Below, piece after piece: positions 5,935 to 6,995 of a stretch of DNA of 64,000 nt. The notes beneath the pieces were generated by a model that had not been told where the DNA came from, did not search any database, and saw nothing but the letters and a program-made list of their open reading frames with translations. Each line of letters opens with the position of its first letter. Position 1 is the stretch's first letter. The stretch is taken from positions 1 to 64,000 of the forward strand of contig CAWGVG010000029.1 in the NCBI GenBank assembly GCA_963825865.1. Reading direction: 5' to 3'. This DNA is from an uncultured Nitrososphaeraceae archaeon (GTDB taxonomy: Archaea > Thermoproteota > Nitrososphaeria > Nitrososphaerales > Nitrososphaeraceae). The position numbers and the translations under genes were made by a program.

Positions 5935-6995
5935 ATCTGACGCAACTGACATATCTGACATAAGTAACTAGTCGTCTATATATTTAGTGAATCTGCTCTT
6001 TCATTCTAGCGTATGCAATCTGTTCTGTTTTCAGAGGTTAATGCTTGATTTTCTTTCATATTCCTTTTGTATTTGTGAAACCCAACTTGAATTATCTTAC
6101 CTGATTTAACCATATTTTCAATACAATAGTGGGCATCTCCTACGTAGAATTTCCCACTCGAAACTAGGCTTTCTTTGAGTACTTGATGATCAACTAATTT
6201 ATCGTCAGATTCTTTTTCTAATTCATCAAACCTTTCCCAAAAGACATCATCAACATTTTTTTCTGCCGATGGATCAGTTATAATAGAATATGATTGATTA
6301 TTAGCTTGTTTGTTATAATCTATATGCTCATCGCTATCTGACCTATCTGGCATATCTGATGCGGTTTCATTAAGAGATATTTCCTTTTTACTTTGTTGAT
6401 GTGAAAGTGTGACAGTTGCGTCAGATGTTGTTAGTGCTTATTATTATTATTATTATTATTATTATTATTATTATTATTATTATTATTATTATTATTATTA
6501 TTATTATTATTATTATTATTATTATTATTATTATTATGTATTGGAGTATGTTGACTACTAATATTATTATTATCTGACTCATCTGACATGTTTTCACTTT
6601 TTCTATTGCTATTCTCTGCATCAAATTCCTTAGTCATGTCAGATATGTCAGATACGTAAGTTGTAGCTGTAGTTGTTATCTTACTGTCGTTATTATTGAT
6701 ATTATTATTAGTATTATTAGGATTTTGAATCAGATGATGGCTACTACTACTTTCTGTAGTATCTGACCTATCTGACGTCACTTGGTTTTTTCCATTGCCA
6801 TTGTCAGTACTATTTTTGCTACTGGCATCAGTTGCGTCAGATACGTCAGTTGTAGTTATAGTAATATTATTAACATCGAAATTAGATTGTTGGTAAATAC
6901 GATCATCTGACCTATCTGACGTCTTTTCGTTCCTTATGTTACCATTCTCTACATTAGATCCGCTAATGGTGTCAGTTGAGTCAGTTATGTCAGAT
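5935..6995. repeat. Array of iteron-like heptamer clusters in alternating orientation within and just after the MCM 3' region
   Basis: Forward clusters at 5935, 6336, 6572, 6761, 6905; reverse clusters at 6411, 6638, 6827, 6971; 9-bp period; forward-to-reverse spacer 50 nt each time. Confidence 0.9.

What the first reader, a model, noticed from the sequence alone, without database searches (positions are those of the whole stretch)
6336..6995. Protein-silent, fixed-spacer inverted iteron array inside the element's MCM gene
Seen: clusters of 2-3 heptamers A(T/A)CTGAC at exact 9-bp period alternate strictly in orientation: F6336/R6411, F6572/R6638, F6761/R6827, F6905/R6971. In all four units the last forward and first reverse heptamer are exactly 50 nt apart, while distances between units vary (about 53-145 nt, one containing the poly-ATT tract). 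In the coding frame both orientations give x-S/T-D (TCT/ACT-GAC versus TCA-GAT), so the alternation is nearly invisible in the protein and points to selection on the DNA. Established: lambda ori iterons lie inside gene O. Inference: this is a multi-unit replication origin or loading site embedded in the helicase linker. It may be read by the C-terminal winged-helix-like domain (6006-6353) or by the 8817-9326 protein, which would give a self-loading MCM replicon; no Orc1/Cdc6 gene is visible in this part of the element.
Basis: partly seen in the sequence, partly recalled or inferred. Interest (0 to 1): 0.85.

Follow-up and report, generated by a model that had tools for sequence, protein, structure and literature searches.

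The report
Origin-like repeats inside MCM helicase gene
A mobile element in a soil archaeon carries, inside its own replicative helicase (MCM) gene, short DNA repeats in opposite orientations that look like the helicase's own landing site, and related elements keep the same layout with altered repeat sequences.

Summary
There are four units, each with 2-3 heptamers A(T/A)CTGAC at a 9-bp period, a 50-nt gap, then the inverted heptamers. They lie in the linker of an element-borne MCM gene. The frame breaks seen in the window are probably assembly errors: independent contigs lack one base at 7023 and at 7805, and this assembly's cellular MCM and RpoB genes are also split.

The main new result is comparative. 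In 16 of 29 related MCM loci from other genomes, an inverted pair of 9-bp-period arrays (mostly 3+3) follows directly after the MCM core. Periods 6-8 and 10-12 give 0-2 loci. The repeat sequence differs between elements but matches its own reverse-complement partner (0 of 10000 permutations). The two arms often encode different peptides. This is constraint on nucleic acid, not on protein.

The closest known system is the iteron origin of the self-loading SaPI Rep helicases, which also uses heptamer plus dinucleotide. Differences: here the site lies inside the ORF, and no conserved AT-rich centre was found. Binding and origin activity are untested. The fixed 50-nt spacer and the "protein-silent" reading are peculiar to this element's duplicated units. 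I found no description of this in print.

The parts
6006..8814 (-). Element-borne MCM gene. Order: N-terminal/OB part, AAA+ P-loop, lid, winged helix 1, repeat-bearing linker, winged helix 2. The window splits it into four open frames: 7783-8814, 6990-7814, 6434-7036 and 6006-6437.
   Evidence: Pfam MCM 7.5e-24, MCM_lid 5.4e-9. Frames. One base is absent at 7805 and at 7023 in every independent contig that spans those places. Close relatives P0001 and P0002 read from the linker into winged helix 2 in one frame.
7017..7253 (-). Winged helix 1, the last domain of the conserved MCM core, ending KPTVLAV. It is my preferred candidate for the protein domain that reads the repeats.
   Evidence: AlphaFold model from alignment A2, mean pLDDT 84.7. 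The best PDB fold matches are winged helices, with weak E-values of 0.045 or more and probability up to 0.99. Its sequence similarity tracks repeat similarity beyond the MCM core.
6905..6995 (.). Unit 4: forward heptamers at 6905 and 6914, a 50-nt gap, reverse heptamers at 6971, 6980 and 6989.
6761..6851 (.). Unit 3: forward heptamers at 6761 and 6770, a 50-nt gap, reverse heptamers at 6827 (one mismatch), 6836 and 6845.
   Evidence: Units 3 and 4 are merged into one (153 nt skipped) in a contig of run X4, and a loose end in X3 agrees.
6572..6662 (.). Unit 2: forward heptamers at 6572 and 6581, a 50-nt gap, reverse heptamers at 6638, 6647 and 6656 (one mismatch).
   Evidence: None of the 10 listed strain differences in 6605-6667 falls inside a heptamer.
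6438..6542 (.). (ATT)34.7 microsatellite, read as poly-Asn on the minus strand, between units 1 and 2.
   Evidence: The run is N6 in P0002 and absent in P0001.
6336..6426 (.). Unit 1: forward heptamers at 6336, 6345 (one mismatch) and 6354 (one mismatch), a 50-nt gap, reverse heptamers at 6411 (one mismatch) and 6420.
6063..6272 (-). Winged helix 2, the C-terminal domain of the fusion protein.
   Evidence: AlphaFold model from alignment A1, mean pLDDT 79.6, helix-helix-helix-hairpin. The PDB fold matches are all winged helices and include the archaeal MCM C-terminal domains at ranks 30-31; E is 0.06 or more. Homologues were found in 14 of 200 family genomes, fused to MCM or to other helicases.
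5935..5959 (.). Half unit: three forward heptamers at a 9-bp period in non-coding DNA, 47 nt 3' of the stop codon.
   Evidence: A comparable array lies 3' of a winged-helix-2 remnant in L062.
4725..4805 (.). Extra unit (49-nt gap) with its spacer inverted relative to the linker units, next to a duplicated 3' fragment of the gene (4830-4949 matches 5959-6078).
55605..55703 (.). Extra unit (49-nt gap) in a second, degraded copy of the element. 55607-55711 is 84% identical to 6849-6744 in inverted orientation.
8817..9326 (-). 169-aa protein of no known family, encoded directly upstream of the MCM gene.
   Evidence: No Pfam, PHROG or Atlas name. Homologues in 43 of 200 family genomes; in at least 13 places they sit directly upstream of an element helicase gene.
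10024..11061 (-). Tyrosine integrase of the element.
   Evidence: Pfam Phage_integrase 4.9e-8

Best explanation
The heptamer arrays are iteron-type protein-binding sites that form the element's replication origin, or helicase loading site. They are written into the linker of the element's own MCM gene. Each arm offers two to four sites of about 8 nt (family consensus A-T-N-T-G-A-Y-N plus one free base) at a 9-bp period. The two arms face each other across a spacer. The likely reader is a winged-helix domain of the MCM hexamer itself, most probably the one that ends the conserved core and is encoded immediately 5' of the arrays. Adjacent subunits would each hold one site, and two rings would load in opposite orientation, as proposed for the self-loading Rep helicases of staphylococcal SaPI islands. 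Shown: the arrays, their position in the gene, their conservation with co-varying sequence in relatives, and the winged-helix folds. Inferred: binding, which domain reads the sites, and origin activity. This element has four tandem units (three in some strains) where most relatives have one.
For: (1) Over the whole 4.98-Mb genome, inverted pairs of 6-mers repeated at +9 occur at 9 loci. Periods 6, 7, 8, 10, 11, 12 and 15 give 0, 0, 1, 1, 4, 3 and 0 loci. Six of the nine lie in or beside genes of element replication proteins: this MCM, a second MCM family on C15 and C62, a helicase-like gene on C5, and prim-pol/helicase genes on C6 and C27. The one on C27 is in non-coding DNA about 220 nt 3' of an intact 772-aa gene. 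(2) In MCM relatives from other genomes, 13 of 28 loci pass the strict scan at period 9 and 0 at periods 6, 7, 8, 10, 11, 12 and 15. With a TGAY-core scan, 16 of 29 loci have a forward-then-reverse pair in the 660 nt after the MCM core, against 2 loci in the remaining 83 kb. Periods 6-8 and 10-12 give 0-2 loci, and the reverse order gives 3. Eleven of the 16 have 3+3 repeats. (3) Non-core positions of forward repeats match the reverse complement of the other arm at 0.695 within a locus and 0.461 between loci; 0 of 10000 permutations reach the observed value. The peptides co-vary by base pairing, not by chemistry: S/D, C/H, Y/Y, G/P, A/A. (4) Within this element's four units, pairwise identity in the arrays is 0.92 at codon position 3, against 0.67 and 0.76 at positions 1 and 2. 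The spacer gives 0.50, 0.45 and 0.41. (5) The gap is 2 mod 3 in 15 of 16 loci, so the arrays are read through as protein. (6) Repeat similarity follows winged-helix-1 similarity: partial r is 0.46 given the core, reached by 9 of 5000 permutations, while the core given winged helix 1 gives -0.09. This used 15 loci; L057 and L058 were left out because their MCM match is cut short. (7) SaPI5 ori has 7-nt iterons separated by a dinucleotide. Three to four winged-helix domains of one hexamer sit on consecutive iterons, and opposed sets lie next to the rep gene (passages read). (8) No Orc1/Cdc6 was found among the 15 element ORFs scanned.
Against: There is no binding or replication data. Thirteen of 29 relatives show no pair by the scan; some show degenerate traces in translation, and two have too little sequence after the gene. 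The spacer between the arms is not AT-richer than its flanks (0.58-0.79 against 0.53-0.76), so the AT-rich centre of the SaPI origin has no conserved counterpart. The ATT tract of this element is not conserved either. The fold matches for both winged helices have weak E-values (0.045 or more), and such domains can bind proteins rather than DNA. The link between winged helix 1 and the repeats could reflect physical linkage and shared recombination history rather than recognition. Related loci are not independent. Of the 29 loci that encode winged-helix-2 relatives, 27 gave no pair; these include the long non-MCM helicases. A host Orc1/Cdc6 could still load this MCM.
Confidence: 0.5

Rival explanations
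1. The arrays are real protein-binding sites with a job other than replication initiation. Options: autoregulation of the replication operon, a partition (centromere-like) site, or a recombination hotspot for swapping the C-terminal module. The reader would be another element protein, such as the 169-aa upstream partner or the small RHH/AbrB-like proteins at 9354-9774.
For: The arrays sit exactly at the junction between the conserved MCM core and C-terminal modules that vary: winged helix 2, C2H2 zinc finger, or other. In the window, unit copies sit at breakpoints of homology (4830-4949/5959-6078, 55607-55711/6849-6744), and unit number differs between strains. The 169-aa family accompanies element helicase genes in at least 13 places. 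A second array pair with a different core (AACGACA, 3405-3518) lies in a divergent intergenic region of the same element.
Against: The constant association is with replicative helicase genes of three unrelated kinds, not with par or regulator genes. Palindromes are recombinogenic in any case, so breakpoints may be a consequence rather than a purpose. No partition genes were seen among the ORFs scanned.
Confidence: 0.2
2. The selected feature is a nucleic-acid structure. The two arms pair as a hairpin in the mRNA, or as a hairpin or cruciform in single-stranded or supercoiled DNA. It would act, for example, as a priming or loading signal or as a translational pause.
For: Reverse-complement covariation is what a stem would give. 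Units 2 and 3 fold far better than shuffles (z -7.1 and -5.7), and so does the AACGACA pair (z -7.6). In several relatives whole 9-mers, and in L058 all 27 nt, are complementary. The origin of the archaeal plasmid pRN1 lies in sequence downstream of its replication gene (start of abstract only, PMC4234260).
Against: A stem has no need for an internal 9-bp period or for 3+3 copies, yet both are conserved. Identity in the hairpin register (0.691) equals that in other registers (0.673), though this test has low power. Position 9 of each repeat is free, and in this element the 2-nt linkers do not pair. Units 1 and 4 fold no better than shuffles (z -1.3 and -1.15). Loops of 62-284 nt differ widely. 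No Rfam family reaches its threshold.
Confidence: 0.15
3. There is no function. The arrays are a by-product of slippage in a low-complexity coding linker, kept alike by gene conversion or template switching between inverted copies.
For: The linker is low-complexity and length-variable: a poly-Asn microsatellite, a 12-nt indel, and changing unit number. The four units here are duplicates. TCT/TCA and GAT are common codons in this genome, so a chance inverted Ser-Asp pair in a single ancestor is not rare.
Against: The same 3+3 layout, at the same place, at period 9 only, is present in 16 of 29 loci whose MCM part is only 25-62% identical to this one. It recurs in unrelated replication genes and in non-coding DNA. 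Third codon positions are the most conserved in the arrays. Strain differences avoid the heptamers.
Confidence: 0.1

Closest known systems
Iteron origin and self-loading Rep helicases of Staphylococcus aureus pathogenicity islands (SaPI1, SaPI2/bov1, SaPI5). Passages read in PMC9371898 and bioRxiv 10.64898/2026.10.17.759575.
   Same: A mobile-element AAA+ replicative helicase (SF3, or MCM-like SF6) with a winged-helix domain after the ATPase. Six to twelve short (5-7 nt) iterons in two opposed sets. In SaPI5, heptamers are separated by a dinucleotide, giving a 9-bp period, and three to four adjacent subunits each hold one iteron. The site lies directly 3' of the sequence that encodes the reading domain. 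There is no separate loader.
   Different: SaPIs are bacterial, and the origin lies outside the ORF around a roughly 100-bp AT-rich centre. Here the host is an archaeon and the helicase is a true MCM with its N-terminal domain. The arrays lie inside the ORF and are translated as a linker to a further domain. No conserved AT-rich centre was found. Nothing has been tested at the bench.
Phage lambda ori inside gene O (recalled, not from a call)
   Same: The origin repeats lie within the reading frame of the element's own initiator.
   Different: Lambda has four direct repeats of about 19 bp. O is not a helicase and recruits DnaB through P.
Origins of polyomavirus large T antigen and papillomavirus E1 (recalled, not from a call)
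   Same: One protein is both initiator and helicase. It binds short repeats (GAGGC pentamers, E1 hexamers) set as inverted groups and assembles two hexamers in opposite orientation.
   Different: These are SF3 helicases of eukaryotic viruses. The origin-binding domain lies N-terminal to the helicase, the sites are non-coding, and the spacing differs.
Archaeal chromosomal origins: inverted ORB/mini-ORB boxes bound by Orc1/Cdc6, which loads MCM (recalled, not from a call)
   Same: Inverted recognition elements around the place where MCM is loaded.
   Different: They need Orc1/Cdc6, which was not found in this element. ORB boxes are longer and are not 9-bp-period arrays, and they flank an AT-rich unwinding element.
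MCM-encoding cryptic integrated elements of Thaumarchaeota (Krupovic et al. 2019, PMC6563490; term search of the full text)
   Same: The same kind of element: integrase plus MCM in ammonia-oxidising archaea.
   Different: In that paper 'origin of replication' occurs 0 times, and 'iteron' occurs only in a reference title. It presumes that MCM recruits the cellular replisome. No repeats in the MCM gene are described.

Membership tests
Iteron origin of a self-loading helicase (SaPI Rep/ori type) | A replicative AAA+ (SF3 or SF6/MCM) helicase encoded by the element | tested here: met
   Pfam MCM 7.5e-24, MCM_lid 5.4e-9. Integrase 4.9e-8 in the same element.
Iteron origin of a self-loading helicase (SaPI Rep/ori type) | A winged-helix domain C-terminal to the ATPase | tested here: met
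   Two predicted winged helices (pLDDT 84.7 and 79.6). The fold matches are all winged helices, but with E of 0.045 or more. This holds at fold level only.
Iteron origin of a self-loading helicase (SaPI Rep/ori type) | Short (5-7 nt) repeats, at least two on each side, in opposite orientation | tested here: met
   Also present in 16 of 29 related loci.
Iteron origin of a self-loading helicase (SaPI Rep/ori type) | Consecutive iterons spaced as heptamer plus dinucleotide (the SaPI5 case) | tested here: met
   Period 9 only: 16 loci at 9, and 0-2 loci at periods 6-8 and 10-12. SaPI5 spacing.
Iteron origin of a self-loading helicase (SaPI Rep/ori type) | Origin located immediately downstream of the rep reading frame | tested here: not met
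   The arrays start 9-231 nt after the end of the MCM-core match (the end of winged helix 1), but inside the ORF. The gap is 2 mod 3 in 15 of 16 loci, and the ORF is continuous in independent contigs and in relatives.
Iteron origin of a self-loading helicase (SaPI Rep/ori type) | An AT-rich centre between the opposed iteron sets | tested here: not met
   Spacer AT is 0.58-0.79 against 0.53-0.76 in the flanks, across 16 loci. The window's ATT tract lies between units and is not conserved.
Iteron origin of a self-loading helicase (SaPI Rep/ori type) | Specific binding of the helicase to the repeats, and origin firing without a loader | not testable with these tools
   Needs EMSA or footprinting and loading assays.
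Orc1/Cdc6-ORB origin of archaea | An Orc1/Cdc6 initiator gene in the element or next to the repeats | tested here: not met
   No such Pfam hit in the 15 ORFs of 1-11.1 kb. The host copy was not examined.
MITE or transposon ends | Many dispersed near-identical copies bounded by terminal inverted repeats | tested here: not met
   Heptamer pairs at 9 bp occur at only 23 positions in the genome, and most lie in this contig's element copies. The overall heptamer density of 0.235 per kb is close to my hand estimate from base composition.
Known structured RNA | A match to an Rfam covariance model at its gathering score | tested here: not met
   3300-7200: the best hits score 21.7 and 20.1 bits against thresholds of 39 and 87.

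The most novel reading that the evidence does not exclude
The element-borne MCMs of this archaeal family are self-loading initiator-helicases. The winged helix that ends the MCM core reads a triplet of roughly 8-nt iterons at a 9-bp period, one site per adjacent subunit. Two opposed triplets seat two rings. The whole origin is encoded inside the helicase's own linker, so that specificity domain and site are inherited as one module while the downstream domain is free to be exchanged. This would be the first defined origin and loading mode for any archaeal mobile-element MCM, and a case of MCM loading without Orc1/Cdc6.
Probability: 0.4. Interest if true: 0.9.

Novelty: new variant of a known kind. 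Interest (0 to 1): 0.78.

Why it matters
It is not known how MCM helicases carried by archaeal plasmids, viruses and integrated elements find and open their own DNA. The survey of thaumarchaeal elements only presumes that they recruit host factors (PMC6563490). This finding supplies a concrete, conserved DNA site and one or two candidate reading domains. The question becomes testable with a few oligonucleotides and one recombinant protein. If it holds, it links archaeal MCM to the self-loading helicases of bacterial islands and eukaryotic DNA viruses. It would also show an origin living inside a translated linker. In practice it offers a sequence signature (inverted 9-bp-period triplets after the MCM core) for finding the origins of such elements.

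Tried and rejected
1. MITE or dispersed-repeat reading: rejected, because the heptamer has no genome-wide excess and few clustered sites.
2. Integration (att) site reading of the copies at 4725 and 55605: rejected. The duplication includes neighbouring genes and MCM fragments, so it is a second, degraded element copy. No tRNA gene was found in the window.
3. Pseudogene reading of the MCM: rejected in favour of assembly error. The third frame break, at the end of the ATT tract, could not be checked on reads. It rests on P0001 and P0002.
4. AT-rich unwinding element in the spacer: not found.
5. DNA of close relatives for a synonymous-site test: the metagenome scan returned only 3 loci, each with a remnant of winged helix 2 next to host genes. 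The genome-collection scan gave 1 locus, and a profile query was not conserved enough to search with.
6. A name for the 169-aa protein: nothing usable from Pfam, PHROGs or the protein Atlas.
7. Rfam: nothing at threshold.
8. Expression: no RNA holder listed.
9. Earlier notes of this scan by words: none.
11. This MCM lineage outside the family: not found in 262 genomes of 14 other families of the class at E of 1e-18 or better.
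Full report
THE OBSERVATION. The heptamer A[TA]CTGAC occurs 38 times in the window against 16.69 +/- 3.74 expected, and none of 100 shuffles reaches 38. 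Fifteen exact copies lie in 6336-6995. With five one-mismatch copies they form four units. Each unit has 2-3 forward heptamers at a 9-bp period, a gap of exactly 50 nt (6361-6410, 6588-6637, 6777-6826, 6921-6970), then 2-3 reverse heptamers at the same period. The distances between units are 145, 107 and 53 nt, and the first holds (ATT)34.7.

First, the units are diverged tandem copies of one another (68-73% identity over 95 nt), so the fixed spacer is inherited rather than found four times. Second, further copies lie outside the stated range. These are three forward heptamers at 5935-5959 in non-coding DNA just after the stop codon, and whole units with a 49-nt gap at 4725-4805 and 55605-55694 whose spacer is inverted relative to the linker units. 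Third, the gene is broken into frames in this window.

THE GENE. On the minus strand, 7783-8814 carries the MCM OB and P-loop parts, and 6990-7814 carries the rest of the P-loop and the lid (Pfam). Units 4, 3 and 2 and the poly-Asn run are open in another frame (7036 to 6434, 201 codons). Unit 1 and the last domain return to the MCM frame.

These breaks are most likely assembly errors. The same assembly splits its cellular MCM with a stray C inside the GSTA-AGLTAAV motif, and splits RpoB into three pieces. Every independent soil or rhizosphere contig that spans the places lacks one base at 7805 (runs X2, X4) and at 7023 (runs X3, X4). Close relatives P0001 (93% identity) and P0002 (85%) read from the linker through unit 1 into the last domain in a single frame.

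The arrays therefore lie inside one MCM reading frame. The domain order is N-terminal part, AAA+, lid, winged helix 1 (model pLDDT 84.7), repeat-bearing linker, winged helix 2 (pLDDT 79.6). The fold matches for both domains are uniformly winged helices but carry weak E-values (0.045 or more). The poly-Asn run is N6 in P0002 and absent in P0001. One strain variant has one unit fewer.

IS THE CONSTRAINT ON DNA OR ON PROTEIN? Within the four units, pairwise identity in the arrays is highest at codon position 3 (0.92, against 0.67 and 0.76 at positions 1 and 2). The spacer shows the usual order (0.50, 0.45, 0.41). The 10 listed strain differences in unit 2 all fall in the spacer or the linkers, and none falls in a heptamer. 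Both samples are small, and paralogous units are not independent.

The decisive evidence is comparative. I scanned for any 6-mer repeated at +9 whose reverse complement is also repeated at +9 within 400 nt. This scan finds 9 loci in the whole 4.98-Mb genome. Periods 6, 7, 8, 10, 11, 12 and 15 give 0, 0, 1, 1, 4, 3 and 0.

Besides this finding, the nine loci include several replication genes. A second MCM family on C15 and C62 has ACTGACC arrays, read as TDQ x4 and then QVS x4. A helicase-like gene on C5 has ATGGGAC arrays. A prim-pol/helicase gene on C6 has CGTCCG arrays. A non-coding pair (TGTACCAAC) lies about 220 nt 3' of an intact prim-pol/helicase gene on C27. A non-coding pair lies in this window at 3405-3518 (AACGACA). 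The remaining two are a non-coding CTCCAC cluster on C21 beside a transposase-like ORF, and a probable chance hit on C10.

I then took relatives of the MCM C-terminal half from a sample of 200 genomes of the same family and fetched 29 loci. The strict scan hits 13 of 28 loci at period 9 and none at periods 6, 7, 8, 10, 11, 12 and 15. A scan for TGAY cores finds a forward-then-reverse pair in the 660 nt after the MCM core in 16 of 29 loci (18.3 kb). It finds a pair in only 2 loci in the other 83.2 kb. Other periods give 0-2 loci, and the opposite order gives 3.

Eleven of the 16 have 3+3 repeats. The gap ranges from 62 to 284 nt and is 2 mod 3 in 15 of 16, meaning the arrays are translated. The family consensus is A-T-N-T-G-A-Y-N-n.

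Positions 3, 7 and 8 are specific to the element and agree between the two arms. Identity of forward repeats to the reverse complement of the other arm is 0.695 within a locus and 0.461 between loci, and 0 of 10000 permutations reach this. In the intact 1096-aa gene of locus L002/L042, the arms encode RDLSDPSDQ and SRSQGSQGS. Across loci, the residue pairs are S/D, C/H, Y/Y, G/P and A/A. These pairs are linked by base complementarity, not by chemistry.

'Protein-silent' is a special property of ATCTGAC, and the 50-nt spacer is not general.

WHAT IT MOST LIKELY IS. The constant partners of such arrays are replicative helicase genes of mobile elements. The nearest described system is the origin of the SaPI islands. 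There, the Rep helicase (SF3, or MCM-like SF6) recognises 5-7-nt iterons through a C-terminal winged helix. Six to twelve iterons lie directly after the rep gene in two opposed sets (PMC9371898, passages). In SaPI5, heptamers are separated by a dinucleotide, and three to four winged helices of one hexamer sit on consecutive iterons (bioRxiv 10.64898/2026.10.17.759575, passages). That gives the same 7+2 geometry and the same small number of sites per arm.

I therefore read the arrays as an iteron-type origin or loading site of a self-loading MCM (confidence 0.5).

Which domain reads the sites is inference. The same repeat (ATCTGACC) occurs with winged helix 2 here and with a C2H2 zinc finger in L055. 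Arrays occur with at least six zinc-finger tails and with nine other tails.

Winged helix 1 is constant and is encoded immediately 5' of the arrays. Its similarity between elements tracks repeat similarity beyond that of the MCM core. The partial r is 0.46, reached by 9 of 5000 permutations. This used 15 loci, with L057 and L058 left out because their MCM match is cut short. Physical linkage could produce the same signal.

The 169-aa protein encoded upstream (8817-9326) has no known family. It accompanies element helicase genes in at least 13 places and remains an alternative reader. No Orc1/Cdc6 was found among the 15 ORFs of the element.

EVIDENCE AGAINST, AND RIVALS. Nothing has been tested at the bench. 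Thirteen of 29 relatives lack a detectable pair. Several of these show degenerate xxD ... Sxx traces, and two have too little 3' sequence. The spacer is not AT-rich, so a defining part of the SaPI origin is missing. The ATT tract here is a variable microsatellite.

A hairpin (RNA or single-stranded DNA) would also give covariation, and units 2 and 3 fold well (z -7.1 and -5.7). But it does not explain several things:
- the conserved 9-bp period and the 3+3 copy number;
- equal identity in and out of the hairpin register (0.691 against 0.673, a low-power test);
- the free ninth position;
- the poor folding of units 1 and 4 (z -1.3 and -1.15).

A neutral origin by slippage and gene conversion fits the unstable linker. 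It does not fit recurrence at one period, at one place, in loci only 25-62% identical in the MCM part, in unrelated replication genes, and in non-coding DNA. A different role for the sites (regulation, partition, or recombination at the core/module junction) cannot be excluded.

NOVELTY. The survey of thaumarchaeal integrated elements mentions MCM-encoding elements but no origin or repeats. In a term search of its full text, 'origin of replication' occurs 0 times, and 'iteron' occurs only in a reference title. My other literature searches gave no description of repeats inside an archaeal MCM gene. Papers outside the searched library could exist.

This MCM lineage was not found in 262 genomes of 14 other families of the class. 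One relative comes from a MAG titled 'uncultured Nitrososphaeraceae archaeon'.

The principle (helicase-initiator plus opposed iterons) is known. What is new is an archaeal true MCM as the actor, the origin placed inside a translated linker, and the missing AT-rich centre. I rate it a new variant of a known kind, with interest 0.78.

Noticed in passing
G000 C46:54639-55305 and C44:25097-26220: The cellular MCM and RNA polymerase subunit B genes of this assembly are split by frame shifts; in the MCM a stray C sits in the GSTA-AGLTAAV motif. The assembly therefore carries indel errors, and apparent pseudogenes in it should not be trusted without reads.
   Followed up: partly
window 3405-3518: A second inverted pair of 9-bp-period arrays with another core (T/AACGACA x3, a 64-nt gap, then the inverse x3). 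It lies in non-coding DNA between divergent ORFs (2247-3122 on the minus strand, 3857-4315 on the plus strand). Its RNA fold z-score is -7.6.
   Followed up: partly
window 54380-57050: A second, degraded copy of the element. It holds a homologue of ORF 3857-4315, a heptamer unit, a 96%-identical copy of 4944-5267, and an MCM fragment (7525-7778 matches 56797-57050 at 80%).
   Followed up: partly
G000 C15:40227-42724, C62:185713-188377, C5:23122-24664, C6:57961-60884, C27:165458-168133: Other element replication genes in the same genome: a second MCM family, a helicase-like gene, and prim-pol/helicase genes. Each has its own inverted 9-bp-period arrays (ACTGACC, ATGGGAC, CGTCCG, TGTACCAAC). Most lie before a C-terminal C2H2 zinc finger. 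The one on C27 is in non-coding DNA 3' of the gene.
   Followed up: partly
G000 C21:44291-44560: A non-coding cluster of CTCCAC/GTGGAG repeats in both orientations, with 9-bp-period triplets at both ends, next to a transposase-like ORF. It looks origin-like, and its owner is unknown.
   Followed up: no
G000 C29:104185-104264: Three reverse heptamers (GTCAGAT/GTCAGTT) at a 9-bp period, with one forward heptamer 46 nt upstream, in apparently non-coding DNA. MCM fragments lie at C29:110230-110760.
   Followed up: no
window 8817-9326: A 169-aa protein family without any annotation. It was found in 43 of 200 family genomes and repeatedly sits directly upstream of element helicase genes (MCM and non-MCM).
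   Followed up: partly
window 3857-4315 and 54809-55374; G000 C5:21718-22158: A 152-aa protein conserved in these elements, with a weak PHROG match to single-strand DNA-binding proteins (E 0.002).
   Followed up: no
window 5122-5703: An ORF with an adenylate/guanylate cyclase catalytic domain (Pfam 7e-8) sits between the MCM gene and the duplicated fragment of its 3' end. It is possibly cargo or an insertion.
   Followed up: no
window 25871-26919 and 59597-60650: A 1.05-kb direct repeat at 99% identity, each copy overlapping an ORF of about 300 aa. It is probably an insertion sequence.
   Followed up: no
window 6690-6905: Length polymorphism between strains. Metagenome contigs show a 12-nt deletion at 6690 and a 153-nt skip (6751 to 6905) that removes one unit.
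   Followed up: partly
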